Positions 247 to 36,995 of a DNA stretch of 64,000 nt are shown here, piece after piece. Where the stretch lies: positions 7,735 through 71,734 of the forward strand of contig JAEEOP010000033.1 in assembly GCA_016284295.1 (NCBI GenBank). Reading direction: 5' to 3'. The notes below the pieces were generated by a model. That model did no database searches, was not told the DNA's origin, and saw only the letters and a program-made list of their open reading frames with translations. The stretch's first letter is position 1. Every line of letters starts with the position of its first letter. The DNA is from Methanomassiliicoccaceae archaeon (GTDB taxonomy: Archaea > Thermoplasmatota > Thermoplasmata > Methanomassiliicoccales > Methanomethylophilaceae). The translations under genes and the position numbers were made by a program.

Positions 247-1920
247 TTGGACGATCTTGTAATCGCATCAGCCATTTTGACGCTACTTGCAGGCATAGGG
301 GTTTTCCTTACAGCCTGCATCATGCTGAGTTCCAATTTGGAGTCCATGAGCAGCGGACGTCTCAAGAAGATGTTCACGAAGGCTTCCAAGAGCAAACTGT
401 ATGGTGTCGGTATCGGTGCCGTAGGTACGGCGGCCATCCAGAGTTCCGGAGCCATGACCGTCATGGTCATCGGATTCGTCAACGCGGGGATCATGGCCCT
501 GCCTCTGGCGGCCACGATCATCTACGGAGCGAACATCGGTACTACGATAACCGCCCAGCTTGCCGCCATCGGTATGTTCAGCGGCAATTCGATATCCCTT
601 GCCCTCATCTTCTCCGCATTCGCCGGTATCGGCGCCTTCGCGATGACCTTCGCCAAGAATGATTCCACCAAGCTCTGGGCCGGTGTCATCACAGGTTTCG
701 GTCTGCTTTTCGTTGGACTCACCATGATGGCATCCTCCATGTCGGAGTTCGCGGAGCTGCCTGAGGTCGTCGAGTTCCTCTCTTCGATAGACAATATCAT
801 CCTTCTCCTGCTGATCGGTATCGGTCTGACCGCGCTCGTCCAGAGCTCGTCGGTCGTGACCACGTTGGCCATCACCATGGTGGTCACCGGGCTCATCAAT
901 CTCGAGCAGGGTATCTATCTGACATTGGGATCCAACATCGGATCGTGTGTCGTCGCCATCATTGCCGGATTCTCCGGAGGGCTCAACGCCAAGAGGACAT
1001 CCGTCATACATCTTCTCTTCAACGTGTTCGGAGTGGTGATATTCGTCATCGCCGGATTCGTCATGGGAACGTTCGGGGTCCAGTACTCGGGTCTCTTCGA
1101 ATCCCTGTTCCCCGGAGCGCCGTCCACCCAGCTGGCCATGTTCCACACGTTCTTCAACGTGGTGACCGTCATAATCATGCTCCCGCTGACCAACAAGCTG
1201 ATCAACCTCGTCGTCAGGCTGGTCCCCGACAAAGGGGAGCCCGAGGAGACCGAGTTCATTCCAAAGCTCCACTTCCTGAACGAGTACATGCTCAGGACCC
1301 CGCCTCTTGCGGTCCAGCAGGTGATGAAAGAGGTACTCAACATGTCCGTCATAGCCATGGACAACTACCGCAAGGCATGCCACATGATCCGCACTATGGA
1401 CTTCTCGAAGGAGAACGAATTCTGCAACAACGAATAGGAGCTGAACTTCCTCAACAAGGAGATCGCCAGGTTCCTGGTCAAGCTGTCAGAGAACAAGCTC
1501 AGCGAGAGGGACCAGATATACATCTCCACGGTGTACCACACCATCTCGGACATGGAGCGCATAGGAGATTATTCCAAGAACATCATGGAGTACGCCAAGA
1601 AGATGGATGAGCTCGGATTCAAGTTCTCAGAGGTCGCACTCCAGGAGACCATGGTCATGGAGGGGCTGATCGATCAGCTCTACGACAAGATCGAGCAGGC
1701 ATACAGCGAATCCAACGAGACCGCTTTGGAGCAGGCGTACGACATCGAGGAGAACATAGACGTCGTGACCGAGGAGATGGCGGAGAACCATGTCAAGAGG
1801 CTCAACGAAGGCGTGTGCACCCTGGATGTCGGTTCGGAGTTCCTTGCGATGACCTCGGATTCCGAGAGGGTGGCGGACCACCTGATCAACATGGGCAAGG
1901 TAATCAGGCTGTACTCCTGA
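247..1920 (+). CDS. Na/Pi cotransporter family protein (NptA-like) with C-terminal PhoU domains; one in-frame TAG at 1435-1437 (probable Pyl)
   Basis: QSSGAMTV and QSSSVVT cotransporter repeats plus GANIGTT/GSNIG motifs; track ORFs 247..1437 and 1531..1920 are in one frame separated only by a TAG (NNE-TAG-ELNFLNKEIARFL...SDMERIGDYSKNI). Confidence 0.88.
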
Positions 1921-2286
1921 TCGGACGTACGCGCTCTTCAGGCGTTTCCCGTTCCTGACCCTGCCGTAGAACATCGCGACCATCACGCAGTCGTCGGGCG
2001 TCAGGTCCCCGAGCTTGTAGTTGAATCTGCTCTTGGAAAGCTTGAACGTGCGGTCGGTCCTGACCGTGGACGTCTTGTCGAGCATCACCTCATATGGATC
2101 GACCAGTTTGATATCCGTCTCCGGATGGTGGCCGTGGGATGTGACCATGAATACTATCAGGTCGTCCCCCTTCTTGTCCAGCACGATGACCGGGCGGTTC
2201 TTCGCTCCCGTGAGGTTGTCGAAGTCGACCTTCGCGTTCCAGACCTCCATCGGTCTCGGCACGGAGGGGTCGCTCTTCAGCTTCAC
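1627..2286 (-). CDS. PemK/MazF-like protein (core ~1920-2286) with an open-frame tail antisense to the Na/Pi gene
   Basis: EVWNAKVDFDNLTGAKNRPVIVL..VFMVTS..STVRTDR pattern typical of the PemK/MazF fold; GTG start 4 nt after the ubiA-family stop. Confidence 0.65.
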   Translation of the reverse strand: MKLKSDPSVPRPMEVWNAKVDFDNLTGAKNRPVIVLDKKGDDLIVFMVTSHGHHPETDIKLVDPYEVMLDKTSTVRTDRTFKLSKSRFNYKLGDLTPDDCVMVAMFYGRVRNGKRLKSAYVRSGVQPDYLAHVDQVVRHPLGIRGHRKELRTDIQGAHAFVEPLDMVLRHLLGHDVYVLLDVVRLLQSGLVGFAVCLLDLVVELIDQPLHDHGLLECDL

Positions 2287-9859: not shown

Positions 9860-11143
9860 TCATCCGCGGTTCAGGATCGAATCGATGGCCGCAATAGTCG
9901 TCTCCTCTATCCCACACTGTTCTGCGTACTGCCGCCAATCCCCCACAACCCGTCCGGTCTTCTGAAGCACATTCCTGCAGAAGCGTCCGCTCAATCCTAT
10001 GGACTTCCCGAATGACAGGAGATCATCCTCGGTGATGCCTTCGGATTTGCCGCAGACTGTCATCTGATGGCCGCGTAGCCATCTGTTGCCAGGGTTGTAG
10101 GCGAAGGTCAGGTCATACGCCGGCGCAAGGTCCCATACACCATCCCTGTCCATGATGAAGGATATGTTCTTCACATGGTCGTCGCAGTTCATGGCCCCGA
10201 CGTTGAACACCGTCCTTCTGTAGATCTCCTCCATCCCGCTCCTGTGAATCCCCAATCTCCTGGCGACGGATGCGCAGGTCTCGTATCCGCATAGGCACGG
10301 CTCATTGTAGTCGTAATGTCCGATAGCACCTAGCGTCTGCACGAACAGCTTCTTCGCGCCTTCGCGGTCGAAACGCCTGGTCATGAAGTGGGACATCCCG
10401 TCCTTCTTCAATATCCTGCATTCGCTCATATCGATCCCGGCATCCTTGGCCATGAGATGATACGCATATTCGATGAGGGTGTACTGTTTGGGATCCTTCT
10501 CCCCGTGGTCCCCGTTACCCCTGACCTCATCGAACTTGACGAGCCAATGATCCGATCCCGGGGCGGCAAGGGTCTGACCCGACCTGATCTCGCCGGTCTC
10601 CTCATTCAATGCGATCACGGCCTTCGCCCTGGCACCCCCGGCGGATGAGCCGATCTCCAGCATCTGCGCCATCGTGATCCGGTCGATGTCGTATGAGGCG
10701 CTTTCCTTACCGGACAGCACCATCGACGCCAGTTCTGTCAGTTTGGTCACATCGACTTCCGAATCCGGGAAATCCATGTCGGCGGCGGGCACATACTCCA
10801 GGGCTCCCATCCCGCGTCTTCCGGTGTAGCTAAGTCTTTCCAACGGCGACATGCTCCCGACCGGTCTCCCGTTCTGCTTCAGCCAGAGGTCTATGACCGC
10901 ATTGCCGAACCTGTCCGGAAGGGAATCCGCCACAAGCCCAGGAAGGCCGTGGAAGGATGCTGAATTCCCGAGTGCGGGAAATGCGTAGACCCTGTCGGAC
11001 AGAGGCATCATGAGCGGTGCGGGCTCGATGCCACTGCCGATGAAATCCCTGTCGTATTCGAACGTGGGGACGGGATCATCCTCACCCTGATGCAGTATGC
11101 CTATCCTCCTGCCCCACAGATGGACCTCGACGGTGCTGATCAT
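9860..11143 (-). CDS. hipA: HipA-family toxin (Ser/Thr kinase) with N-terminal coupling domain
   Basis: EVHLWGRRIG, DSLPDRFGN, SSAGGARAKA, WLVKFD, FMTRRFDR, NCDDHVKNISF, LAPAYDL. Confidence 0.92.
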   Translation of the reverse strand: MISTVEVHLWGRRIGILHQGEDDPVPTFEYDRDFIGSGIEPAPLMMPLSDRVYAFPALGNSASFHGLPGLVADSLPDRFGNAVIDLWLKQNGRPVGSMSPLERLSYTGRRGMGALEYVPAADMDFPDSEVDVTKLTELASMVLSGKESASYDIDRITMAQMLEIGSSAGGARAKAVIALNEETGEIRSGQTLAAPGSDHWLVKFDEVRGNGDHGEKDPKQYTLIEYAYHLMAKDAGIDMSECRILKKDGMSHFMTRRFDREGAKKLFVQTLGAIGHYDYNEPCLCGYETCASVARRLGIHRSGMEEIYRRTVFNVGAMNCDDHVKNISFIMDRDGVWDLAPAYDLTFAYNPGNRWLRGHQMTVCGKSEGITEDDLLSFGKSIGLSGRFCRNVLQKTGRVVGDWRQYAEQCGIEETTIAAIDSILNRG

Positions 11144-11484
11144 TCCTCATCTCCCCATTTCCATTGCCTGGTCTTGGTCGTTCTCTTCCTGGCGCGCTGT
11201 CTAGGTTTCGTGTTCTCGACGAACGCGGACGGGCGGATGGACTGATCGGGGATCAGTATCTCGAAATTGCCCTGCAGGTCCAAAGCTTCCATAAGTTTCA
11301 ACAGGTTGGAGAGGCCTATGTCATAACCGTTCTCGAACCTCTTGATGGTACTGAGCGACACCATCGATTTCTCGGCAAGATCGGTTTGTGTCATGGGATA
11401 GGATATCCTGTACTGTTTGAACCTTTTCGATAATTCGGATGCGATCTCTGTCGGGTCAGAGGTTGTGGTGATTTTCATTGACAT
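11140..11484 (-). CDS. XRE/HTH antitoxin-like regulator (HipB-like)
   Basis: MTQTDLAEKSMVSLSTIKRFENG HTH; ATGA overlap with the hipA start. Confidence 0.85.
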   Translation of the reverse strand: MSMKITTTSDPTEIASELSKRFKQYRISYPMTQTDLAEKSMVSLSTIKRFENGYDIGLSNLLKLMEALDLQGNFEILIPDQSIRPSAFVENTKPRQRARKRTTKTRQWKWGDEE

Positions 11485-11795: not shown

Positions 11796-13004
11796 ATGCA
11801 ATCCAAAGCTGTTCTAGCAATCGCAGTTGCGGTAGTTGTCATCATAGTGGGCATCGGCGCATTCATGTTCCTGAACAACAACGGCAACAATGATTCCCCG
11901 ACCGGAGAGGTGACCGACGCTCTCGGCCGCACCATCAAGATCCCGTCCGACCTGGACAACGGTATCGTGACGATAGGCAGCACCGGGCCTCTCAGATTCG
12001 CTTCCATCTTCGATGTGTATGACAGGATCATCGAGGTCGACAAGGGCGACATAACCGACAACAAGAACGGAAGGGCGTACTCCTATGCATATCCCTACGA
12101 CAAGCTCGATGTCGAGACCCAATCCCATGCCGACAACAAGCTGGAATCGGCGACGGTGGAATCTATAGGGAAGAAGAATCCCAGCCTGGTCATAACCTCC
12201 GCCGGTGTGTGGAACAACTATGCCGAGAACTTCCAGACCCTGGCCAAGAAGGTCACCGTTATGGTGCTAAAGGATCAGCAGATGCAGTACATGACCGAGG
12301 ACGGCAAGCTCGCTGAATTCATCACGTTCAACATCGAGCTCCTTGGAAAGGTCCTGAAGAAGGAGTCCCGTGCCACGGAGGTCATCGACGGCATCAACGG
12401 AATAATCGCAGACATAGCGTCTCTGAAGGGGACATCGGACAGGAGCATCTACGTCGCAGGCGTCACCATCAGCGGCAGCAACACGCTGAACACGACCTTC
12501 CCCAGATACATCCCCTTCGACCTCACCGGTTCCAAGAACGCATACGCCGGCGGGTCCACCGACAGTAAAGTGGTCCTGAGCCCCGAGGAGGTGGCGAAGA
12601 TGGACATCGACATGATCATCATCGACCCGTCATCCTCGGACAAGGTGAAGGAGCAGGACAGCCAGGCGGTCCTATCGTACCTCTACGGTCTCGATGAGAG
12701 TGAGAGGCCGGACATGTACATCACCGTGCCCATAGTGTGGGACAGTATCAACTACGACTGCGCCCTGGCCAGCGCATTTGTTGTGACGTACCTCAATTAC
12801 CAGGGGTCGCTGACCCTCGAGCAGCTGGAGCAGAAGGTCGTGAACGTTTTCAAGACGTTCTACGGAACCCACGGTGATAATGTCCTGAAGGACATGAAGA
12901 CCTTCTTTGAGGGCAAATCCTCATCGAACGGACAGGAGATGCCGATCTTCCAGGAAGTAGAGGTCGTCAAGAACGGCGACATGTACGCGCTTGCAGCCGC
13001 ATGA
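11796..13004 (+). CDS. ABC transporter substrate-binding protein (iron-chelate/cobalamin, Peripla_BP_2 type)
   Basis: N-terminal membrane anchor, VTDALGRTIKIP, DMIIID; first gene of an SBP-permease-ATPase operon. Confidence 0.85.
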   Translation: MQSKAVLAIAVAVVVIIVGIGAFMFLNNNGNNDSPTGEVTDALGRTIKIPSDLDNGIVTIGSTGPLRFASIFDVYDRIIEVDKGDITDNKNGRAYSYAYPYDKLDVETQSHADNKLESATVESIGKKNPSLVITSAGVWNNYAENFQTLAKKVTVMVLKDQQMQYMTEDGKLAEFITFNIELLGKVLKKESRATEVIDGINGIIADIASLKGTSDRSIYVAGVTISGSNTLNTTFPRYIPFDLTGSKNAYAGGSTDSKVVLSPEEVAKMDIDMIIIDPSSSDKVKEQDSQAVLSYLYGLDESERPDMYITVPIVWDSINYDCALASAFVVTYLNYQGSLTLEQLEQKVVNVFKTFYGTHGDNVLKDMKTFFEGKSSSNGQEMPIFQEVEVVKNGDMYALAAA

Positions 13005-13035
13005 CAACTTCGATAAAGGGATTGATAGGGTGCTG

Positions 13036-14109
13036 ATGGACAGGACGGGGACGGAAGACAGTACCAAGGATGGATATCTGAGGTACGCCCGCAGCAAATG
13101 GCTGTTCCTCATCGGAACGGCCGTTCTGCTGGCGATCCTTTCGGTATACACGATAGGTCTCGGTGCCACCGATCTCTCGTACTTGGACATCCTGAGATAC
13201 CTGTTCTTCCCGGACGATTCGTGGGACAGCACGGTGGTCTGGGATCTCCGCTTCAAGATGATCGTGGCGGCCATATTCGCCGGAGCGGCACTCGGTATCG
13301 CGGGAACCGTGATGCAGAGCATCCTGAGGAACCCGCTGGCCTCCCCGTTCACCTTAGGCCTGTCGAACGCTTCGGCGTTCGGCGCGGCACTGGCCATCCT
13401 CTTCATGGAGGGCGGTACCATCGTGGGGCAGACGGCCGCCTATGCGAACGTCAACAACCCCATCCTTGTCACCGTCATGGCGTTCGCCATGGCCATGATC
13501 GCCACCGGCATCATGCTCCTCCTTGTCAAGATGACCGAATGCACCCCGGAATCCATCGTCTTGGCAGGGTTGGCGATCAGCTCGATATTCTCCGCGGGAC
13601 TGGCGTTCCTGCAATACATGGCAAACGATGTCGCATTGTCCGCCATCGTTTTCTGGCAGTTCGGAAGCCTGAGCAAGGTAAGCTGGTCCAACCTGTACCT
13701 GGTAGGTGCCGTGCTGGTCCTCGTCGCACTGTACTTCATCCACAAGCGCTGGGATTACAACGCACTGGAGTCCGGGGAGGACGTGGCCGCCGGCGTGGGT
13801 GTGAACGTTGAGAGGACCCGCATCATCGGATTGGTCCTGTCCGCGGTTCTGACAGCCGTTGTGGTATCGTTCATGGGCGTGATCGGGTTCATAGGGCTGA
13901 TCGGCCCCCATATAGTCAAGAGGCTGATCGGCAACGACAGCAGGTACGTCCTGATAGGCTCCATGCTGATCGGGGCGCTTGTCCTGCTGTTGGCGTACAT
14001 AATAGGGTCGTACGCATTCTACACGGTCATACCGGTGGGCATAATCACATCGGCGATAGGCGGACCCCTGTTCATCCTCATCCTCATAGGGAGGCGCAGA
14101 AGAAGATGA
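13036..14109 (+). CDS. FecCD/BtuC-family ABC permease
   Basis: LRNPLASPFTLG, GEDVAAGVGVNV (EAA-like), GVIGFIGLIGPHIVKRLIG, IPVGIITSAIGGP. Confidence 0.92.
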   Translation: MDRTGTEDSTKDGYLRYARSKWLFLIGTAVLLAILSVYTIGLGATDLSYLDILRYLFFPDDSWDSTVVWDLRFKMIVAAIFAGAALGIAGTVMQSILRNPLASPFTLGLSNASAFGAALAILFMEGGTIVGQTAAYANVNNPILVTVMAFAMAMIATGIMLLLVKMTECTPESIVLAGLAISSIFSAGLAFLQYMANDVALSAIVFWQFGSLSKVSWSNLYLVGAVLVLVALYFIHKRWDYNALESGEDVAAGVGVNVERTRIIGLVLSAVLTAVVVSFMGVIGFIGLIGPHIVKRLIGNDSRYVLIGSMLIGALVLLLAYIIGSYAFYTVIPVGIITSAIGGPLFILILIGRRRRR

Positions 14110-15062
14110 TCGATGTGAAGGACATCAGGTTCTCGTACGGGAAGAACGAGGTGCTGAAGGGGATATCCTTCCAGTCGGAGCCCAACACTGTGATATCGAT
14201 ACTCGGCCCGAACGGTACCGGTAAGACTACCTTCCTGAGATGCATCACAGGGGCCCGCAGGCCCAGCTCCGGGTAGATCACCGTGGATGGCACGGACATC
14301 TTCGCCTTGTCGGGACGCGAATTGGCGAGGAAGATCGCATACGTTCCCCAAAGCGTCCCCGCATCCAGGATGTCCGTGTTCGACACCATACTGGTCGGCA
14401 GGAGGCCGTACATCGAATGGAGCGCGACCAAGAAGGACTTGGACCGCGTATCAGAGATAATCGACGCCCTGGGGATGTCGCACATCTCCCTGAAGTACAT
14501 GGACGAGATTAGCGGCGGGGAGTTCCAGAAGGCCCAGATCGCCAGAGCGATCGTGCAGGAGCCGTCGGTCCTGATCTTGGACGAACCGACGAACAATCTC
14601 GACATCTCCAACCAGCATCGCACAATGGGGATGATCATGGACATAGTCCGTTCGCGGGGGATGTGCACGATCATGACCATGCACGACATCAACCTGGCGG
14701 TGCATTACTCGGACAGACTCCTGTTCCTTAAGGACGGCAAGGTCGCGGCCTACGGAGGACAGGAGATCGTCACCCGGGAGCTGATAGAGGATGTGTACGG
14801 CGTCGAGGCCGATGTCATCCGCCACAGAGGGGTTCCCATGGTGGTCCCCAGATATTCGATAAAATATGACGATCATGATGATGGAGAACGATACGATGGC
14901 AGAGGACCCGGAGAGGCTTATGCACCCTGTAAGGAACGACCGCGACGCAGTGATCCGCGGAAAGTTCGGCGGATATATGACGGGGTTCGCAAACGCGATG
15001 ATACTGAGGACGTCCTTCCGTTTGGGGCTGTTCGACATTGCCGCCAGCCCGGTATCCGCTAA
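14106..15062 (+). CDS. ABC transporter ATP-binding protein; in-frame TAG at 14274-14276 (probable Pyl)
   Basis: ATG at 14106 overlaps the permease TGA; Walker A GPNGTGKTT precedes RPSSG-TAG-ITVDG, then ISGGEFQK, LILDEPT, TMHDIN in the same frame. Confidence 0.88.
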
Positions 15063-15933
15063 AGAGATCTCCGGAAAGGCAGGTCTGGATGCCGATCTGA
15101 CCGTGATGCTCTGCGACAGCCTGGTGCAGATGGGCCTGCTGGACGGGGTGGAAGGAGGATACGTGGATTCGGACGCTGCATCGGCATATCTCTGCCGCGA
15201 TTCAGACACCTATCAGGGCAACACGCTCAACGGGATGTTCGACAACATGGATGAATGGATGCACTTGGAGGAACGCCTCGTAATGGGTCCAAGATATGTC
15301 CACAGGGAGGAGATGTTCGGGGAGAAGTGGCTCCGGGCGATAGCCGAGTCGTGTCTCGATGGGAGCGTCGGTGCAATCGTCGACGAGATAGATTCCCGCG
15401 TGGATCTGTCAGGATACAGGACCCTTCTCGATCTCGGAGGAGGTCACGGTCTGCACTCGATAGGCCTGGTCCACAGGCATCCGAATCTGGAGGCAACCGT
15501 GTTCGATGTGCCGATGATGTGCCCGATAGCCATGAAGAACTCGGAGAGGTACGGCGTGCCCCTGCGTACGATCGCAGGCGACTTCTATAAGGACGATCTC
15601 GGTGGCCCTTACGATGTGGTGTACTCATCGTTCAATCTTTCCACATCGGACATCAGGATGGCCGACCGTGTCCACGGGGCGGTGGCAGACGGAGGCCTTC
15701 TGATTCTCCGCCGTCATCTGCCAGCGACATCGCAGGACAGCATCCGGAACTTGGAGTGGAGCCTCAGGACCTGGGACGGGAAGGGCAAGAAGAACTACGG
15801 GGGCTCATGGCTACCCACGGCGGAGGCCTACATCGACAAACTGATCGGTCTGGGCATGTCGATGCTCGTGAGGGAACAGATGGATGGATCATCCGAACTG
15901 GTCATCATGACGAAAAGTCCGATACATCCGTAA
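14866..15933 (+). CDS. SAM-dependent methyltransferase (Methyltransf_2 with dimerisation domain)
   Basis: LLDLGGGHG motif I, VFDVP, IAGDFYKD; N-terminal wHTH dimerisation region; start may be 14896. Confidence 0.85.
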   Translation: MTIMMMENDTMAEDPERLMHPVRNDRDAVIRGKFGGYMTGFANAMILRTSFRLGLFDIAASPVSAKEISGKAGLDADLTVMLCDSLVQMGLLDGVEGGYVDSDAASAYLCRDSDTYQGNTLNGMFDNMDEWMHLEERLVMGPRYVHREEMFGEKWLRAIAESCLDGSVGAIVDEIDSRVDLSGYRTLLDLGGGHGLHSIGLVHRHPNLEATVFDVPMMCPIAMKNSERYGVPLRTIAGDFYKDDLGGPYDVVYSSFNLSTSDIRMADRVHGAVADGGLLILRRHLPATSQDSIRNLEWSLRTWDGKGKKNYGGSWLPTAEAYIDKLIGLGMSMLVREQMDGSSELVIMTKSPIHP

Positions 15934-15967: not shown

Positions 15968-16351
15968 ATGGATTTCTGCCCCAGATGCGGTAGGTACCTC
16001 AAGGATGAGGAGTTCCAATGCCCGGAATGCGGTAACATTGTGCGTGAGCTGCCCATCCGCGATCAGGTAGCGCCCGAGATCAACATGATGTACTCCGGGA
16101 ACAGGGCGGGCAGATTGGACATCAGAGACATATTCAGGGACAAGGTGTTCTACATCGTGTTCGCGATAGGTTTCGCGGCTTCGTTCTCCGTCACCTACTT
16201 CTGGAGGTTCTCGGTGTTCCTGTTCCTCATCCCGCTGCTGATGCCGGTGGGGAGGCCGAGCATAAGCCTGGGGCTCATACTCGGCATAATAGTCGGTTCC
16301 CTGATCGGCTTCGTCACGAAGACCTATCTCGTGGCCTCTTCGATAGTGTGA
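15968..16351 (+). CDS. Zinc-ribbon membrane protein
   Basis: CPRCG..CPECG followed by hydrophobic helices. Confidence 0.65.
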   Translation: MDFCPRCGRYLKDEEFQCPECGNIVRELPIRDQVAPEINMMYSGNRAGRLDIRDIFRDKVFYIVFAIGFAASFSVTYFWRFSVFLFLIPLLMPVGRPSISLGLILGIIVGSLIGFVTKTYLVASSIV

Positions 16352-16928
16352 AGTCGTAGAGTTTGTCCATGTTCTCGCCGGTCTTGGCCGAGACCTCCTG
16401 GACGGGCTTTCCGGGGAAGTTCTGTTCGAACCACGCTTTGATGTGCTCTATCTGACCGGGCTTCGCCAGGTCCATCTTGTTGATGAGGATCAGGTCCGAC
16501 CCGGACATCTGCATCTTGTAGAACGCCTCCTTCTTCTCCAGGAGCGTGTCGAACCTCTCCACGTCGGCAAGTCCGATGATCGAACACGAATCCTCGTCGA
16601 TCATGGCGTTGTGCACGAACTGCTTCACCTTGTGGGGGAGCGCCAGACCGGTGGGCTCGATGATGAGCACATCGGGGTCCAGGTCCCTCTTGATGTTCCT
16701 GAGCGTGGCCTGGAGGGTGCCGACCAGGGTGCAGCAGATGCACCCCTCGGGCAGCTCCGTCGCGCTGTACCCTTCGGCTTTGATCGTCGCTCCGTCGACC
16801 CCGACCTCTCCGGATTCGTTGACGATGATAGCCGTCTTCAGTCCCTTGCCGGTATAGACCTTGGCCAGGTCCAGGAGCATGGTGGTCTTTCCGCTTCCGA
16901 GGAATCCTCCGATTATGAATACATCCAT
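16314..16928 (-). CDS. CobW/HypB/UreG-family GTPase (metallochaperone)
   Basis: GGFLGSGKTT, NESGEVGVDG, GCICC, IEPTG, NKMD. Confidence 0.9.
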   Translation of the reverse strand: MDVFIIGGFLGSGKTTMLLDLAKVYTGKGLKTAIIVNESGEVGVDGATIKAEGYSATELPEGCICCTLVGTLQATLRNIKRDLDPDVLIIEPTGLALPHKVKQFVHNAMIDEDSCSIIGLADVERFDTLLEKKEAFYKMQMSGSDLILINKMDLAKPGQIEHIKAWFEQNFPGKPVQEVSAKTGENMDKLYDFTLSKRPRDRSS

Positions 16929-16937
16929 CGTACCGCC

Positions 16938-18554
16938 TCAGAACGACAGCCTGAGGTCGTCGTACTTGTACACTTTCTGGGGGCAGCTGAACTGGCATCT
17001 GTAGCATGCGGTACCGAGGCAGTTCTTGGTCTTGACCACGATCTTCTTGTCCTCCTGGACGGTGAGCGCGTGCTCGGGGCACTCCTTCTCGCACTTCTTG
17101 CACCCGGTGCAGCCTTCCATGTATCCGGTGAGCTCGGTACCGATGTCGTGGAGGATGTACAGTCCCCTCTCTCCCAGGTCGGGAATGTCACGCTGTACGA
17201 TTCTGTGGACCGTGGGCACGCCTTTCGGCCTGGGGAGCTCCTGGATGCCTGCGATGGCGTTGTTCCTGTTGTACATCTCCATGCTCATGCCCTCGTCACA
17301 CACGGCCAGCTCCTGGGTGTAGATCTGCTCGAAGATCTTGTCGCCTGCGAACATGATGTGGTTGGCCCTGATTCCGTTGGCGATGTCCTGGAGGGTGTCC
17401 AGGAGCTCGGGGTTCCTGAGGATGTCGGTGGCCATGGCCAGCGAGGTGTTACCGTACTGGTAGATGGTGTTGCATGACGGCGGCAGGAGACCGACCTCCC
17501 TTGCCTTCACAGCATCCACATAGGTTCCGGATGCCCCGGCCATGTACATGATGTCGAGGTCGCTGAACTTGATGCCCGCATGCTCCAGGAGGGTGAAGTG
17601 TCCCGCCCTCATCGCTCCGATCGCCTTCATGGCCTCGGAGATGTCATGCGAGTCGATGTAGATGCCGTCCTGCAGGTGGAGCAGTCCGTCGGAGGTCGTG
17701 AGCTTCCCCTTCTTCCAGAGGTGGCAGTCCAGTGCCGCGGCGACGGCGGCGATGACTCCGGTACCGGTGATACCGGTGGCCTTGCCGCTCATCGGCCCTT
17801 CGGGGGTGACGGACTCCAGGCCGAAGTCACATCTGGCCCCGTTCTCGGGGATGATGTCGTCGTTCAGGACCTTGCATATGTATTGGAAATCATATTCGAG
17901 ATCGGATATGGCGCCGGGTCCAGCGAGCATACCGTATTTGATGGACTGCCCTTCCATGGCCGGTCCCGCCGCCGCGGATCCCGTGTAGATGTCGTCCCCT
18001 ATCTTCAGGGCCATCTCGGCGTTGGTACCGTAATCCGTGACGAGGCAGTTCTCCTTCTGCTCGAGGAATCCGCTCTTGTACATCATGGCCAGCGCATCGG
18101 CGCCGATCTCGTGCCTGATCGCCGGGGGAACGCAGAGCTCGCATCCATCCCTGACATTCAGTCCGACATCCACTGCCGAGAAGACCCCGGCATCCCTTTT
18201 CTGCGCCACTATGCCTCTGGCCTTGTGCGCGTTCTCGCCCGCGAAGGCCAGGTCGTCCACCGGGATCCCTTGGAAGAGCGACAGCTGTATCGGGTTACCG
18301 CAGATGCTGACCCTCTCGACCTTGTTCAGGTCCACGCCGAGGGTGGCAATGAGCTTGTTGACGGTGTCGATCAGGATCTTGTGCGCCGTGTCCGTCCCTG
18401 CGTTTATGCAGAACGTTAGATGATCCATGATGTTCGCTCCGGGCAGCGGATGACATTCCGTGACGGAGGTTGATAGTATCTTGCCGTTCGAGAGGTCGAC
18501 GGCGTGCCCTCTTGTACCGCTCGTACCGATATCCAAAGAAATTCCTATACTCAT
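16938..18554 (-). CDS. ramA: Methyltransferase corrinoid protein reductive activase (RamA/RamM, ASKHA ATPase with C-terminal ferredoxin)
   Basis: SLDIGTSG, DYGTNAEMAL, SAAAGPAMEGQ, C-terminal CTGCKKCEKECP and CLGTACYRC; AGGTGG RBS before ATG at 18554. Confidence 0.92.
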   Translation of the reverse strand: MSIGISLDIGTSGTRGHAVDLSNGKILSTSVTECHPLPGANIMDHLTFCINAGTDTAHKILIDTVNKLIATLGVDLNKVERVSICGNPIQLSLFQGIPVDDLAFAGENAHKARGIVAQKRDAGVFSAVDVGLNVRDGCELCVPPAIRHEIGADALAMMYKSGFLEQKENCLVTDYGTNAEMALKIGDDIYTGSAAAGPAMEGQSIKYGMLAGPGAISDLEYDFQYICKVLNDDIIPENGARCDFGLESVTPEGPMSGKATGITGTGVIAAVAAALDCHLWKKGKLTTSDGLLHLQDGIYIDSHDISEAMKAIGAMRAGHFTLLEHAGIKFSDLDIMYMAGASGTYVDAVKAREVGLLPPSCNTIYQYGNTSLAMATDILRNPELLDTLQDIANGIRANHIMFAGDKIFEQIYTQELAVCDEGMSMEMYNRNNAIAGIQELPRPKGVPTVHRIVQRDIPDLGERGLYILHDIGTELTGYMEGCTGCKKCEKECPEHALTVQEDKKIVVKTKNCLGTACYRCQFSCPQKVYKYDDLRLSF

Positions 18555-18602
18555 CGTTACCACCTGACCTATCTGGTCTTTCTTATGTTTTTGTAATAGA
18601 AC

Positions 18603-18820: not shown

Positions 18821-19600
18821 ATGATAGACTACTCTAAAGTAGACTTTTCTAAGATCCTCAAGCGTTACGACGTTGAGGGTCAGAACGAAATGACACCTGA
18901 GTCCGTGGCCAAGGCAATGCTGCCGAAGGACCCCGTCCTGTACAAGGTCGCCGAGTGCGTCCTGTACATGAAGTTCAAGGACGTGGGACCCGCGACCGCC
19001 GAGGCGCTGAAGACGAAAGATGCTCTTGATATCATCAACAACGGACTCGTCGTCGGAATGGAGTGTGTCGCGAAACTGTACGCAGAGCACATCTACTACC
19101 TGCCCGAGATCATGATGGCCGCAAAGACTATGGAGATCGGAATCGCACTCGCAGAGAAGCAGATCCCCGGTGGAAGGACGACAAAGGGAACCGTCGTCAT
19201 GCATGCCGCCGAAGGAGACCCCCACGACATCGGTAAGAACATCGCCGCCGTCATGATGAGGTCTTCCGGATACACCGTCGTCGACATGGGAAAGGATGTC
19301 GCAGTGGACGATGTCGTCGCCAAGGTGAAGGAGATCAAGCCCTTCATGGTGACCGGAACCGCGCTCATGACGACCACCATGACAGCATTCCCCCGCGCCG
19401 CAGCGAAGCTCGTCGCAGCCGGAATCAACATCCCGTTCATGGCAGCCGGAGGAGCAGTCAACAGGGACTTCTCGGAGTCCTTCGACCTCGGAATCTATTC
19501 CGAGAAGGCGCCTCAGACCCCGCCCATTGCGGACAAGATCCTTGAGGGATACGACTGGAGAAAGATCAGGGAAGAGTGGGACCACATCGTAGGAGAGTGA
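18821..19600 (+). CDS. mtaC: Methanol corrinoid protein
   Basis: EGDPHDIGKNI B12-binding motif (DxHxxG), GTALMTTT, AAGGAV; AGGAGG RBS. Confidence 0.93.
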   Translation: MIDYSKVDFSKILKRYDVEGQNEMTPESVAKAMLPKDPVLYKVAECVLYMKFKDVGPATAEALKTKDALDIINNGLVVGMECVAKLYAEHIYYLPEIMMAAKTMEIGIALAEKQIPGGRTTKGTVVMHAAEGDPHDIGKNIAAVMMRSSGYTVVDMGKDVAVDDVVAKVKEIKPFMVTGTALMTTTMTAFPRAAAKLVAAGINIPFMAAGGAVNRDFSESFDLGIYSEKAPQTPPIADKILEGYDWRKIREEWDHIVGE

Positions 19601-19605
19601 TTGTT

Positions 19606-20997
19606 ATGGCAAAGTACACAAAGATGGCATACGGCAGTGCGGAAGAGATGGTATTCGGACACGCGAAGGAGCCCGTCTCTTACGGTTTCGGAATCAAGGT
19701 CGGAGCAGGCAGGGTCATCCCCGAGCTGAACTACGGACCCAGGCCCGGATCCGAGGCGACACCCGAGAAACTCAGGAAGGAGTACGTCGACTACATCTCC
19801 AAGGATGTCCTCAACAGATGCGTCACCCTCGGATTCCCCGACGTCCAGCTGGAGACCGAGTGGATCTCCCAGATGGGAGACCCCAAGATGGCCACACCCG
19901 TGGTCGAGGGCCAGAAGGCAATCTGCGAGAAGTACTACGAGGAGTACGGACTGAACTGCGCCGTGAGGCAGACAATCCCCGACCAGCGTGAGGCGGAAGA
20001 GGGATACAGGCCCGGAATGGGCGGAAAGCACAGCTACCCCGAGCACCTGTTCCAGTGTGCTGAGGTCGCCTGTGAGAACGGAGCGGATGTCCTCTCGTGC
20101 GAGACCCTCGGAGGAAAGGAGCTCGGAGACTACGCGACCACGAACGGAGACATCGTCGCATTCCTGTTCGGAATCGGATACCTCGGTTCCATCGACATGG
20201 AGTACGTCTGGAAGCAGTTCGTCGATATCGCCAAGAAGAACAAGGTCATCGCCGGAGGAGACACCAACTGTTCCGGAGCCAACACCTCGATGTTCATGGC
20301 CGGCGGAATGCTGGACCAGGATGTCCAGAGGACCTACTCCGCGGTCACCCGTGCGATCTCCGCCGCAAGGACCCTTGTGGCATGGGAGCAGGGTGCATCC
20401 GGACCCGACAAGGACTGCGGTTACGAGGGACCCATCTGTAAGGCTATCGCAGGAAAGCCCTGCGCACAGGAGGGAAAGAACTGTCAGTGCGCCCACGCCG
20501 ATCTTCAGGGTAACCTGATGGCACAGGTCTGCGACCTCTGGTCCAACGAGTCCATCGAGTACCACCCCGAGTTCGGAGGAACCTCCGTCCAGTGCTGGAT
20601 GGGAAGCCTCGGATACGAGGTGGCCCTGATGAACACCGCCATCCAGACCGGCAAGCAGAAGGACCTCAGAGACCTCTACATGATCACCGACCGTGAGAGG
20701 GGACCCGAGGGACACATCCTCGCATACGACAACGCATATAAGATCGGAGAGGCTATCGTCTCTGAGGGCAACAACTACTACCTCAGGGCCAAGGCCGCCG
20801 GACTCACCGCCGCGAAGCTCATCAAGGACCACAACGACTCCAAGGAGCTCCAGCTGACCAGGAAGCAGAGGGAAGTCCTCGACTCTATCATCAAGGACCT
20901 CGAAGCTCTTCCGGATGATGAGGACAAGTTCTTCGAGTACTGCTGCAAGAAGTACGCGGACGTGCCCAACTTCAACCTGAAGAACTACGGTCTTTGA
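19606..20997 (+). CDS. mtaB: Methanol:corrinoid methyltransferase
   Basis: MAYGSAEEMVFGHAKEPVSYG, ENGADVLSCETLGGKE, GDTNCSGANT, GPDKDCGYEG, WSNESIEYHPEFGG. Confidence 0.95.
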   Translation: MAKYTKMAYGSAEEMVFGHAKEPVSYGFGIKVGAGRVIPELNYGPRPGSEATPEKLRKEYVDYISKDVLNRCVTLGFPDVQLETEWISQMGDPKMATPVVEGQKAICEKYYEEYGLNCAVRQTIPDQREAEEGYRPGMGGKHSYPEHLFQCAEVACENGADVLSCETLGGKELGDYATTNGDIVAFLFGIGYLGSIDMEYVWKQFVDIAKKNKVIAGGDTNCSGANTSMFMAGGMLDQDVQRTYSAVTRAISAARTLVAWEQGASGPDKDCGYEGPICKAIAGKPCAQEGKNCQCAHADLQGNLMAQVCDLWSNESIEYHPEFGGTSVQCWMGSLGYEVALMNTAIQTGKQKDLRDLYMITDRERGPEGHILAYDNAYKIGEAIVSEGNNYYLRAKAAGLTAAKLIKDHNDSKELQLTRKQREVLDSIIKDLEALPDDEDKFFEYCCKKYADVPNFNLKNYGL

Positions 20998-26835: not shown

Positions 26836-27831
26836 ATGGACGACCGGAACAGGGTGCTCACAGCCATAGTCGCGGCGATATTCGTCATCGCAGGTCTTGT
26901 AGTGTCGCAGAACTGCTACAGTCACGATGAGAATGATGATTGGACGGTGGGCGTCATGTGGCGCACCAACCAGTCGTCTGAGTCGTATGTGTATACATGC
27001 AGGGCCATCGAGGCGGCCGGCGGCAGCGTGGTCAAAGTCGGACAGATATTCTTCGACGACCTGGAGTATGACGGCAACGGAAAGCTGGTGAGCGGCATCA
27101 ACGAGATAGGTTATCTCGATCAGGAAACGGCCGACAAGGTGAAAGGCGCAGATTGGCATCGCTCTAACATCGAGGAGGCGCTAGCAGGGGTGGATTTCGT
27201 AGTGTTCCCTGGCGGGGACGATATCAGCCCCTCCCTGTACAAGATTCCACAGGAATGGGTGGACAGCGGAGAGGACAGGGCTTTCGACCCGGAGAGGGAC
27301 GTCTCTGACTACTTGGCGATGAAATATTGCTTGGAGAAGGACATCCCGCTGGTCGGAATATGCAGGGGGATGCAGTTCCTATTCGTGGTCTCCGGTGCGG
27401 AGATGGCTCAGGACATTCCCGCATATTTCAGGGAGCATTTGTCCGATGATAGGGATACGCACAGGAATCCTATGCCCTCGCAGGGAGGGTACAGGGACTA
27501 CTCTTTTCATGACGTCGTTCTGGAGACGGGATCCTGCATCCATGGCATTATGGGCAAGGAGCTACTGACAGGATGTCCTTCATGGCACCATCAGGCTGTT
27601 CTGAACGTCGACAACACGTAGCTGAAGGTCACGGGATACACCGAGACCGACGGCATCAGAATCATCGAATCCGTTGAGAGAACCGACAAAACGTGTGCGT
27701 TCGGAGTCCAGTACCATCCAGAGGCCGCGGTCTGCAAGATCCTCGACGATCTTCCCAACAAGGATGATTACATGAGCTACGAGGATGCAATGAGACTGTT
27801 CGAATGGATCGTGGATTACGGACGATCCTGA
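26836..27831 (+). CDS. Peptidase C26 / class I glutamine amidotransferase (gamma-glutamyl hydrolase-like) with N-terminal anchor; in-frame TAG at 27619-27621 (probable Pyl)
   Basis: FPGGDDISP, GICRGMQ nucleophile elbow and SWHHQAV before the TAG; GVQYHPE catalytic His-Glu only after it; TGA at 27829-27831. Confidence 0.85.
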
Positions 27832-35089: not shown

Positions 35090-35890
35090 TCATTGGGTGA
35101 TGCTGACCCTCTTGGGCAGCACGTACAGGTCCCCTTCGGAATCAATACCGACGGAGGCCTCGACGCCGTACACGTCCTTGATCAGTTCCGGGGTGATGAC
35201 CTTCTTCGGCTCTCCGACGGCCACCAGCTCCCCTTTCTTCATGATCACGCACAGGTCGCAGTACCTCGCCATCAGGGAGATGTCGTGCTCCGCGACAAGG
35301 ATCGTCATGTCCTTCTTGACCATGGCCTTCAGGTACTCCATGACCTCGAGCTTGAACTTCATGTCAAGGTGGGACGTGGGCTCGTCGACCAGCATCAACC
35401 TGGGCTCCTGCACGTAGGCCTTGGCGATCAGCACACGCTGCTGCTCTCCGGAGGAGAGCATGTTGAGGGCGCGGTCCTGAAGATGATGGACACCGAACTT
35501 CTCCAGCGTCTCCTCCACGAGGGTCTCGTCCTCGTCGGTCTCCCACCACATGTTCTGCAGATAGGGATATCTTCCGAGCATGACGGTCTCGAACACGGTC
35601 AGTCCGAAGGATGCGGTCATCTCCGCCGGCACGTTGGACACCAGCTTGGCGACCTCCGTGGGGGTCTTCGGTATGACCGATTCCCCGTCGATGAGGATGT
35701 CCCCGCTGGTGAGCATGTGCATCTTGTTGATGCATCTCATCATCGTGGTCTTCCCGCAGCCGTTGGGCCCGATGAGGCCTACGAGCTTTCCCGATGGGAT
35801 CGAGAAGCTTACATCCCTGTCGGCATGGTAGCCGTTTTCGTATATCTTATCCAAATGACGGATCTCTAATAACGGAACCTCATCATCCAT
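35090..35890 (-). CDS. ABC transporter ATP-binding protein (FecE/BtuD-like)
   Basis: GPNGCGKTT, LSSGEQQR, LVDEPTSHLD, AEHD. Confidence 0.92.
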   Translation of the reverse strand: MDDEVPLLEIRHLDKIYENGYHADRDVSFSIPSGKLVGLIGPNGCGKTTMMRCINKMHMLTSGDILIDGESVIPKTPTEVAKLVSNVPAEMTASFGLTVFETVMLGRYPYLQNMWWETDEDETLVEETLEKFGVHHLQDRALNMLSSGEQQRVLIAKAYVQEPRLMLVDEPTSHLDMKFKLEVMEYLKAMVKKDMTILVAEHDISLMARYCDLCVIMKKGELVAVGEPKKVITPELIKDVYGVEASVGIDSEGDLYVLPKRVSITQ

Positions 35891-36995
35891 TGTACATCTT
35901 CCCCCTTATGAACAGAAGGTAGGCGAACACAGGCACGCCTATCAAAGTAGTAATGGCTCCCACAGGGAGCTCGTTTCCAGGAATTATCATTCTCGCCGCC
36001 AGGTCTGCGGCCATCATCAGCACGCCTCCCAGGGCTATCGATCCCGGGAGCACCAGGCGGTGGTCGCCTCCGAACAGCATACGGCACAGGTGGGGCACCA
36101 CCAGTCCGACGAAACCGATGATACCGCAGAACGCGACGCAGAAGGCCGTCATTATGGACGCCAGGGTAAGGATCATGGCGTTGAACCTCTTCACGTTCAG
36201 GCCCATCTGCCTCGCCTGTCCCTCTCCCAGAAGCACCAGGTTCATCTCCTTGGCGTACCTGAAGATGAACAGGCTGATTATGATCACAGGGATCAGGATG
36301 AAGATCGCCTTCTCCCAGGTGATGTTAGAGAAGGATCCGAACAGCCACAGCATGACGTTGGAGACCTTGTTCCCCGAGAACACGATCATTATTGTCTGGG
36401 CGGCACCGAACACCAGTCCGATGACGACTCCCGACAGGACGTAGGCGTTGGTCGTTCCTCCGGCGCGGAGGGCCAGGGCCATGGTGAGCAGGAACGCGAC
36501 CAGTCCTCCCACGATCGCCGCCACGGCGATCAGGTAGATCGAGTATGCGGACATCAGTCCGAAGAACGTGAAGTCGAATGCGATCACGGCTATCGCCAGG
36601 GTGCCCGCTCCCGAGGACACTCCCATGATGTACGGGTCCACGAGCGGGTTCCTGATGACGGCCTGATAGGCCGCACCGGCTACGGACAGTCCCAATCCGA
36701 CGGCCAGGGCCGCTATCGCCCTGGGCGTGCGCGAGCTGTAGATCAGGATCTCGTCCGGGCTCATGACCGAGCCGTCCTTCCCTATGGCCGAGAACAGGCT
36801 CGTCAGCGCCGTTATCGGATCCACGATCTTCGTGGGTCCGATGCATAGCATCGCCAGGAACATTATCACGGAGAGGACGGTCCCCAGGAGCACTATCATC
36901 TTCATCCTGTGCCTCTTCCTCTGCATGTGGGTATCGCCGCCTCCGTCCAGGAAGCGCTTGGCGGATGCCCTGAAGCTCCTTTCCTCGTCAGACAT
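35883..36995 (-). CDS. FecCD/BtuC-family permease
   Basis: IRNPLVDPYIMGVSSGA, GEGQARQMG, GFVGLVVPHLCR, ELPVGAIT. Confidence 0.92.
   Translation of the reverse strand: MSDEERSFRASAKRFLDGGGDTHMQRKRHRMKMIVLLGTVLSVIMFLAMLCIGPTKIVDPITALTSLFSAIGKDGSVMSPDEILIYSSRTPRAIAALAVGLGLSVAGAAYQAVIRNPLVDPYIMGVSSGAGTLAIAVIAFDFTFFGLMSAYSIYLIAVAAIVGGLVAFLLTMALALRAGGTTNAYVLSGVVIGLVFGAAQTIMIVFSGNKVSNVMLWLFGSFSNITWEKAIFILIPVIIISLFIFRYAKEMNLVLLGEGQARQMGLNVKRFNAMILTLASIMTAFCVAFCGIIGFVGLVVPHLCRMLFGGDHRLVLPGSIALGGVLMMAADLAARMIIPGNELPVGAITTLIGVPVFAYLLFIRGKMYNG

What the first reader, a model, noticed from the sequence alone, without database searches (positions are those of the whole stretch)
14274..14276. Amber codon between Walker A and signature motif of an ABC ATPase
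Seen: MIDVKDI...GPNGTGKTT...RPSSG-TAG-ITVDG continues in frame to ISGGE/DEPT/HD, so the ORF track misses the first 59 codons. Stopping here would destroy the ATPase. Inference: this uptake system, next to ramA/mtaCB, works only when Pyl-tRNA is charged, which could tie cofactor import to Pyl availability. The site matches the usual PxxG-E-I pattern, so a neutral E>O change is the simpler alternative.
Basis: partly seen in the sequence, partly recalled or inferred. Interest (0 to 1): 0.68.

Follow-up and report, generated by a model that had tools for sequence, protein, structure and literature searches.

The report
Strain-specific pyrrolysine codon in ABC ATPase
The in-frame TAG is real, but it sits in a gut methanogen that appears to read every TAG as the amino acid pyrrolysine, so it is most likely a recent, harmless Glu-to-Pyl change at a variable surface position rather than a switch controlling cofactor uptake.

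Summary
TAG at 14274-14276 is codon 57 of an ABC-importer ATPase (14106-15062), between Walker A and the signature motif. Contigs from three separate metagenome samples carry the same TAG, so it is not a read error.

The TAG is not conserved. Seven other sources of the same species-level clade (93-98% nt) carry GAG. About 100 homologues in Methanomassiliicoccales and other genomes carry 12 different residues at this site and never TAG.

The wider window changes the picture:
- None of 62 modelled genes ends in TAG.
- Two more genes have internal TAGs inside conserved domains.
- One of these, in a Na/Pi-PhoU transporter, is kept in three other species (79-82% aa identity). All six changes seen downstream of it in a sister strain are at third codon positions.
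- pylT-pylS is present in the nearest relatives and in the sister strain's run.

This matches the published Genetic Code 34 (all TAG = Pyl), described for Methanomethylophilus and relatives. In that work most non-methyltransferase Pyl sites are neutral singletons.

The best reading is a recent, near-neutral Glu57-to-Pyl change. The proposed regulatory link to Pyl supply has no support, and early pseudogenisation is a minor rival. This is an ordinary new member of a known kind.

The parts
14106..15062 (+). ABC-importer ATPase gene (BtuD/FepC/FhuC-like), 318 codons when TAG is read as sense
   Evidence: Translation. Pfam ABC_tran residues 17-163. 98% identical to full-length P0001. Nearest solved importer NBDs are FhuC 7lb8 and HmuV 4g1u.
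14274..14276 (+). In-frame TAG, codon 57; GAG (Glu) in all sister strains; proposed pyrrolysine codon
14205..14228 (+). Walker A, GPNGTGKT (codons 34-41), upstream of the TAG
   Evidence: invariant columns.
14508..14522 (+). ABC signature ISGGE (codons 135-139), downstream of the TAG
14568..14585 (+). Walker B, VLILDE (codons 155-160); the H-loop His193 is at 14682-14684
14889..14891 (+). Codon 262: CGA here, TGA stop in some sister strains; a polymorphic stop that decides whether a 57-codon tail is added
   Evidence: CGA in the window, X1-X3, X5, X6, X8. TGA in L001, X9, X12, X14, X22.
11796..13004 (+). Substrate-binding protein of the same operon (Peripla_BP_2)
   Evidence: synteny in L170, L113, L172.
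12991..14109 (+). FecCD-family permease; its stop overlaps the ATPase start (ATGA)
   Evidence: Pfam FecCD 1-310/311, E=2e-82.
14866..15933 (+). O-methyltransferase-like gene conserved downstream of the ATPase (likely true start near 14896)
   Evidence: Pfam Dimerisation + Methyltransf_2; same position in L170 and L113.
1435..1437 (+). Second in-frame TAG in the window, in a Na/Pi cotransporter-PhoU gene (337-1920); conserved across species
   Evidence: The PhoU match spans it. TAG is kept in X5, X6, X8 and in L188, L189, L190 at 79-82% aa identity.
27619..27621 (+). Third in-frame TAG, in a Peptidase_C26/GATase gene (26836-27831), before the GVQYHPE motif; strain-specific
   Evidence: The Pfam match spans it. 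TCG in X6 and X8, TAG in X1.
14290..14379 (+). Local RNA hairpin 3' of the TAG (arms 14290-14302 and 14367-14379); judged incidental
   Evidence: z = -3.07. The arms are identical in the GAG strain L001 and are not conserved in other orthologues.

Best explanation
The window comes from a ruminant or gut Methanomethylophilaceae archaeon in which TAG is a sense codon for pyrrolysine and only TGA and TAA terminate. This is the published 'Genetic Code 34' situation. In one strain lineage, a single G-to-T change turned GAG (Glu57) of the importer ATPase into TAG. Pyl-tRNA(CUA) reads the codon, and a full-length ATPase is made with Pyl at a solvent-facing, hypervariable position at the start of the beta-strand that follows the Walker A helix. 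The change is neutral or nearly so. It is a young singleton of the kind that accumulates by drift once TAG is no longer a stop.

Shown here: the TAG is real and strain-specific; the site is variable; TAG is never a terminator in the window; other internal TAGs exist, one of them conserved with selection acting downstream; pylT and pylS occur in the clade.

Inferred: Pyl is actually inserted at this codon, and the resulting protein is active.
For: (1) All ATPase motifs lie in one frame across the TAG.
(2) The TAG allele is present in three samples. Sister strains have GAG: L001, X5, X6, X8, X9, X14, X21.
(3) Between the window and L001 the ATPase has 24 synonymous changes against 5 replacements. 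All 9 changes upstream of the TAG are synonymous. The permease and binding protein are intact.
(4) Position 57 ranks 18th of 250 in entropy. It holds 12 residue types in 97 homologues, including K or R in 20. It alternates with conserved V/I at positions 58 and 60, the pattern of an exposed strand face.
(5) Of 62 modelled genes, 53 end in TGA, 9 in TAA and none in TAG. The TAG trinucleotide is nevertheless common off-frame (234 occurrences).
(6) Two more genes have internal TAGs spanned by Pfam domains.
(7) The Na/Pi-PhoU TAG is retained in three other species representatives at 79-82% aa identity with intact downstream sequence. All six X6 differences seen downstream of it are at third codon positions.
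(8) tRNA-Pyl(CUA) and pylS occur in the same MAGs as L188 and L190 (L303, L304). In run X6 they lie on a 31.7-kb contig at depth 81, against 96 and 77 for the window-like contigs. Runs X1 and X3 hold them at about 5x.
(9) Literature: Pyl was detected by proteomics at TAG in M. alvi grown on methanol, and most non-methyltransferase Pyl sites are singletons thought to be neutral (10.1101/2024.09.30.615893). M. alvus has 1.6% TAG stops and 16 extra predicted Pyl proteins (PMC4153887).
Against: No protein-level evidence exists for this organism or this codon. The pyl genes are not in the window, and their link to this exact genome rests on matching depth in metagenome runs. The allele is too young to show selection acting after the TAG arose, so a very recent loss of function cannot be excluded. 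In Methanosarcina acetivorans UAG is read both as stop and as Pyl (PMC12626013), so some termination at codon 57 is possible. All TAG-bearing contigs come from one study at low depth (2-4x).
Confidence: 0.78

Rival explanations
1. Recent loss of function. In this strain the TAG terminates translation wholly or largely after 56 residues. The downstream GTG-start product lacks Walker A, so this importer is dead or dying. The loss is tolerated because paralogous importers exist.
For: The TAG is derived and confined to one lineage. Truncation would remove every catalytic motif after Walker A. A second FecCD-type importer operon with its own ATPase lies in the same window at 35090-41359. Relatives carry several paralogues, e.g. 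'BtuD4'. UAG can still terminate in a Pyl-using archaeon (PMC12626013).
Against: No gene in the window uses TAG as a stop, and two other genes need read-through of TAG to keep their conserved domains. One of those TAGs has been maintained across species. The rest of the operon has no lesions. The only other oddity, the missing stop at codon 262, is shared with GAG strains and so is not part of a decay process.
Confidence: 0.13
2. Regulatory coupling. UAG-57 makes ATPase output depend on the supply of charged Pyl-tRNA, so that corrinoid or metal import next to mtaCB/ramA follows methylamine and Pyl status.
For: The genomic context is as described. In M. acetivorans the pyl genes rise at least 4-fold on trimethylamine, and UAG is read ambiguously, so dose effects are conceivable in principle.
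Against: The TAG is absent from all sister strains and from about 100 homologues. The site is hypervariable. No conserved 3' element is present. Unrelated housekeeping-type genes in the same window also carry TAG. In the related M. alvi, Pyl is inserted during growth on methanol, which points to constitutive machinery.
Confidence: 0.05
3. Sequencing or assembly artefact: the true base is G.
For: The supporting depth is low (2-4x), and the supporting runs are from one study, possibly the source of the assembly.
Against: Three separate samples give contigs identical to the window across the site, and none gives G. A second strain-specific TAG (27619) is likewise confirmed in X1.
Confidence: 0.02

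Closest known systems
Singleton pyrrolysine sites in 'Genetic Code 34' archaea (Methanomethylophilus alvi, Methanococcoides burtonii and others; Kivenson et al., bioRxiv 10.1101/2024.09.30.615893)
   Same: Internal TAG with homology on both sides in an ordinary, non-methyltransferase protein. The genome does not use TAG as a stop. The site is limited to one genome or lineage. No PYLIS is present. The setting is a gut methyl-reducing methanogen family.
   Different: The polymorphism here is seen within a species-level clade (TAG in one strain lineage, GAG in seven other sources). The genus differs from M. alvi: pylS of the nearest relatives is only about 62% identical to my M. alvi-type query. 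No proteomics is available.
Pyl in tRNA-His guanylyltransferase (Thg1) of Methanosarcina acetivorans (Heinemann et al. 2009, from my own knowledge; cited as ref. 39 and ref. 21)
   Same: Pyl at a non-conserved, dispensable position, explained by neutral drift in an organism that already decodes UAG.
   Different: In Thg1 the Pyl was shown experimentally. Methanosarcina still uses some TAG stops, and decoding there is ambiguous.
Predicted Pyl proteins of 'Ca. Methanomethylophilus alvus' (Borrel et al. 2014, PMC4153887)
   Same: TAG-interrupted CDSs whose two halves hit the same protein. TAG is extremely rare as a stop (1.6%). The authors argue that new in-frame TAGs become stable mutations.
   Different: I did not see an ABC-importer ATPase in the part of their table that I read. 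The list is for a different species.
Catalytic Pyl of methylamine methyltransferases MtmB, MtbB and MttB
   Same: Same codon and same tRNA/PylRS machinery.
   Different: There the Pyl position is conserved and catalytically required. Here it is unconserved, surface-facing and recent.
RdmS sensor kinase of M. acetivorans (PMC12626013)
   Same: A non-methyltransferase protein with an internal UAG. It shows that a truncated form can coexist with the full-length form.
   Different: Dual decoding was shown in an organism that still terminates at some TAGs. The window shows no TAG terminators.

Membership tests
Genetic Code 34 (genome-wide TAG = Pyl) | Pyl machinery (pylT, pylS, pylBCD) present in the genome | tested here: met
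   Indirect. No pyl gene or tRNA-Pyl is in the window (Pfam). tRNA-Pyl(CUA)+pylS are in L303 and L304, the same MAGs as L188 and L190. They lie on an X6 contig at depth 81 (window-like contigs 96 and 77) and in X1/X3 at about 5x. pylBCD was not examined.
Genetic Code 34 (genome-wide TAG = Pyl) | Internal TAGs with homologous sequence before and after the codon ('Category 1' genes) | tested here: met
   Three genes: ATPase, Na/Pi-PhoU and Peptidase_C26. A Pfam domain spans each TAG.
Genetic Code 34 (genome-wide TAG = Pyl) | TAG not used as a terminator; no read-through producing large out-of-frame overlaps | tested here: met
   0 of 62 modelled genes end in TAG (53 TGA, 9 TAA), while off-frame TAG is common (234). 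This covers 64 kb only, not the whole genome.
Genetic Code 34 (genome-wide TAG = Pyl) | Pyl detected at TAG positions by mass spectrometry | not testable with these tools
   Only shown for M. alvi and M. burtonii in the literature.
ABC type II importer ATPase (BtuD/FepC/FhuC-like) | Walker A, Q-loop, signature LSGGQ-type motif, Walker B and H-loop in one polypeptide | tested here: met
   All are present in one frame if TAG is read through. ABC_tran E=5e-31. FhuC 7lb8 E=6e-40 and HmuV 4g1u.
ABC type II importer ATPase (BtuD/FepC/FhuC-like) | Encoded with a FecCD permease and a Peripla_BP_2 binding protein | tested here: met
   Genes at 11796-13004 and 12991-14109; the order is conserved in relatives.
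ABC type II importer ATPase (BtuD/FepC/FhuC-like) | Substrate is cobalamin or another corrinoid | not testable with these tools
   The only support is a database name (BtuD4 in M. termitum) and the neighbourhood (ramA, mtaCB, cobW). No cobalamin riboswitch was found.
PYLIS-assisted recoding (as in mtmB) | Conserved stem-loop immediately 3' of the UAG | tested here: not met
   A hairpin exists (z = -3.07), but it starts 16 nt downstream, is identical in the GAG strain, and is absent from other orthologues.
Pseudogene | Additional lesions or relaxed selection in the gene or operon | tested here: inconclusive
   No frameshifts were found. There are 24 synonymous changes against 5 replacements versus L001. 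The stop-loss at codon 262 is shared with GAG strains. No divergence since the TAG arose is available to measure.

The most novel reading that the evidence does not exclude
Pyl-57 is not neutral. Because UAG can still be read partly as stop, the codon would throttle the ATPase, and hence the corrinoid or metal importer beside mtaCB/ramA, in proportion to charged Pyl-tRNA. That would be a strain-level regulatory innovation linking cofactor uptake to methylamine metabolism.
Probability: 0.05. Interest if true: 0.6.

Novelty: new member of a known kind. Interest (0 to 1): 0.25.

Why it matters
Practically, standard gene callers split or truncate this ATPase and at least two other genes in the window. 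Annotating this genome needs a TAG = Pyl translation table.

Scientifically, the case adds a small population-level snapshot to the Code 34 story. Within one species-level clade, two of three TAG codons in 64 kb are strain-specific (GAG to TAG, and TCG versus TAG), and one is fixed across species. This suggests that Pyl codons are still being gained by drift at a measurable rate.

It does not reveal a new mechanism.

Tried and rejected
- **Profile-based locus search** for the ATPase in genome contigs. It was swamped by the generic Walker A pattern and returned only distant bacterial homologues. I replaced it with a specific degenerate DNA pattern for MTMHDINLA.
- **Exact 31-mer around the TAG**, with N at the first codon base, in genome contigs. 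It found no match, so the species representative lacks this stretch or the species is absent from the collection.
- **PYLIS-like element.** A hairpin with z = -3.07 was found. I rejected it because it predates the TAG and is not conserved.
- **'Stops' inside tblastn alignments** of L106, L099 and L181. These turned out to be the normal gene ends at positions 250-252.
- **Missing stop at codon 262 as a second lesion.** Rejected as a sign of decay because GAG strains X5, X6 and X8 share CGA.
- **Rfam scan** for a riboswitch or tRNA-Pyl in the window. Only tRNA-Pro was found.
- **RNA evidence**. There is only one fecal metatranscriptome contig, from a GAG strain, which says nothing about translation.
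- **Structure prediction** was not run. The tool reports no solvent exposure, and the alignment already gives the variability pattern.

Full report
**Observation**

The plus strand from ATG 14106 reads MIDVKDIRFSYGK...GPNGTGKTT...RRPSSG, then TAG at 14274-14276 (codon 57), then ITVDG... The frame continues through Q82, ISGGE (codons 135-139), VLILDE (155-160) and H193. Pfam ABC_tran aligns over residues 17-163, straight across the TAG. Under the standard code the ORF list shows a 56-aa stub (14106-14276) and a GTG-start ORF from 14283.

The gene is the third in an operon: Peripla_BP_2 binding protein (11796-13004), FecCD permease (12991-14109), then this ATPase. After it come an O-methyltransferase-like gene (14866-15933), a small zinc-ribbon ORF and cobW (16314-16928, minus strand). 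Then come RamA (16938-18563, minus strand), MtaC (18821-19600) and MtaB (19576-20997).

**Is the base real?**

Logan contigs of three samples from one gut-metagenome study match the window exactly across the TAG: X1 (14029-14386), X3 (14046-14279) and X4 (14232-14501). Depth is only 2-4x. A sequencing artefact is unlikely.

**Is the TAG conserved?**

It is not.
- The closest database protein, P0001 (98% identity, full length), has Glu at this position.
- Its contig, L001, is 96.1% identical in DNA and reads GAG.
- Contigs of related strains from other studies all read G at 14274: X5, X6, X8, X9, X14, and a metatranscriptome contig from X21.
- Among roughly 100 homologues pulled from one-genome-per-species collections of Methanomassiliicoccales and other taxa, none has TAG here. 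The site holds S, T, R, K, E, A, N, C, Q, G, Y or D.
- It ranks 18th of 250 positions in entropy. It is flanked by invariant G56 and by conserved V/I at 58 and 60. This alternation suggests a strand with residue 57 facing solvent, which is an inference.
- The closest orthologues use GAG, so the change was a single G-to-T step.

**Is the gene decaying?**

Between the window and L001 the ATPase differs at 32 nucleotides. Of these, 24 are synonymous, including all 9 upstream of the TAG. Five codons carry replacements. The remaining two differences are the TAG/GAG site and codon 262. The permease shows the same purifying pattern, and the domains of all neighbouring genes are intact.

Codon 262 is CGA in the window but TGA in L001, so here the frame runs 57 codons further to TAA 15060-15062. 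This looked like a second lesion. However, CGA is shared with the GAG strains X5, X6 and X8, while TGA occurs in L001, X9, X12, X14 and X22. It is an independent polymorphism in a family whose C-terminal tails vary greatly.

**The wider window changes the question**

I trained a simple codon-usage model on the Pfam-confirmed genes. It yields 62 gene models covering about 19,000 codons. Of these, 53 end in TGA, 9 in TAA and none in TAG. The TAG trinucleotide is nonetheless common off-frame, with 234 occurrences against 169 for TAA.

Only three models contain an in-frame TAG, and each lies inside a recognised domain:
- the ATPase;
- a Na/Pi cotransporter-PhoU gene (337-1920, TAG at 1435-1437, inside the PhoU match);
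- a Peptidase_C26/GATase gene (26836-27831, TAG at 27619-27621, before the GVQYHPE motif).

The C26 TAG is strain-specific like the ATPase one: TCG in X6 and X8, TAG in X1.

The Na/Pi TAG is kept in X5, X6 and X8. It is also kept in three other species representatives at 79-82% amino-acid identity (L188, L189, L190), with alignment continuing to the C-terminus. More distant orthologues have E, K or D. All six differences listed for X6's 31-kb contig (7 differences in total) downstream of that TAG are at third codon positions. TAG is therefore translated in this clade.

**Pyl machinery**

The window holds no pyl gene and only tRNA-Pro. It was validated by 94% matches to Methanomethylophilaceae loci. 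The search found pylS in L303 and L304, which belong to the same MAGs as L188 and L190. A tRNA-Pyl(CUA) lies directly upstream in both.

Laid on L303, run X6 gives one 31.7-kb contig at depth 81 covering pylT-pylS. The window-like contigs of X6 have depths of 96 and 77. Runs X1 and X3, which hold the window's own allele, give matching pieces at about 5x.

**Known framework**

Borrel et al. (PMC4153887) found 1.6% TAG stops and 16 extra predicted Pyl proteins in 'Ca. M. alvus'. They argued that new in-frame TAGs become stable mutations there.

Kivenson et al. (10.1101/2024.09.30.615893) defined Genetic Code 34, in which all TAG codons encode Pyl. They confirmed Pyl by proteomics in M. alvi grown on methanol and named Methanomethylophilus, Methanogranum and Methanoplasma among the genera rich in internal-TAG genes. 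Outside the methylamine methyltransferases, nearly all Pyl sites in their data are singletons, probably neutral, and none of the genes they examined has a PYLIS.

The window meets the sequence-level criteria of that framework. The ATPase TAG is a typical singleton, caught here while still polymorphic within a species-level clade.

**Recoding signal**

The 120 nt from the TAG onward fold better than shuffled controls (z = -3.07), through a 13-bp stem with arms at 14290-14302 and 14367-14379. The arms are identical in the GAG strain L001. The stem disappears in other orthologues, which use different serine codons. I treat it as incidental.

**Mechanism and rivals**

Most likely (about 0.78), Pyl-tRNA reads codon 57 and a full-length, active ATPase carries Pyl at a tolerant surface position. 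K or R occupy this position in 20 of 97 homologues.

The main rival (about 0.13) is a very recent null allele. It could be tolerated because a second FecCD-type importer lies at 35090-41359 and relatives carry several paralogues. Partial termination is also conceivable, since UAG is read both ways in M. acetivorans (PMC12626013).

The regulatory-coupling idea (about 0.05) has nothing specific in its favour. An artefact is very unlikely (about 0.02).

**Verdict**

This is a new member of a known kind and of modest interest. Its main value is as an annotation warning and as a small example of ongoing gain of Pyl codons.

Noticed in passing
window 337-1920 (TAG at 1435-1437): A Na/Pi cotransporter-PhoU gene has an in-frame TAG inside its PhoU domain. 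The TAG is conserved in sister strains and in three other species representatives (79-82% aa identity). More distant orthologues have E, K or D. It is a rare case of a non-methyltransferase Pyl codon kept across species.
   Followed up: yes
window 26836-27831 (TAG at 27619-27621): A Peptidase_C26/class-I glutamine amidotransferase gene has an in-frame TAG just before the GVQYHPE motif. Sister strains X6 and X8 read TCG (Ser), while X1 reads TAG. The direction of change was not determined with outgroups.
   Followed up: partly
window 14889-14891 and 14892-15062: The ATPase stop is polymorphic in the clade: CGA here and in X5, X6, X8; TGA in L001, X9, X12, X14, X22. With CGA the ATPase gains 57 codons that overlap the O-methyltransferase-like gene out of frame by about 170-200 nt, which is unusually long for a prokaryote.
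   Followed up: partly
window 14866-15933; L170, L113: An O-methyltransferase-like gene (dimerisation + Methyltransf_2 domains) is conserved directly after the importer ATPase in relatives. Orthologous ATPases carry His-rich C-terminal tails of varying length, and cobW sits next door. Together these hint at a metal or corrinoid substrate. Function unknown.
   Followed up: no
window 35090-41359 (minus strand): A second FecCD-type importer operon: Peripla_BP_2 (39941-41359), a 986-aa fusion of a beta-propeller/PQQ-like domain with a FecCD permease (36988-39948), a second FecCD permease (35883-36995) and an ABC ATPase (35090-35854).
   Followed up: no
window 9860-11478 (minus strand) and 1627-2286 (minus strand): A HipA-like kinase toxin gene (HipA_C + Couple_hipA) with a small upstream ORF (11140-11478), and a weak PemK/MazF-like hit. 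These are possible toxin-antitoxin loci.
   Followed up: no
L188, L303, L089; L285, L286, L291, L292, L313: Public bins look mislabelled. A bin titled 'uncultured Methanomicrobiales archaeon' carries Methanomethylophilaceae-type genes including pylT-pylS. Contigs holding pylS sit in bins titled Prevotella hominis, Lachnospiraceae, Bacteroidaceae, Firmicutes and Dialister hominis.
   Followed up: no
window 14290-14302 / 14367-14379: A 13-bp inverted repeat within the ATPase coding sequence (codons for GTDIF and RMSVF) gives an unusually stable local RNA fold (z = -3.07). It is present regardless of TAG or GAG and only in this clade and partly in L170.
   Followed up: yes
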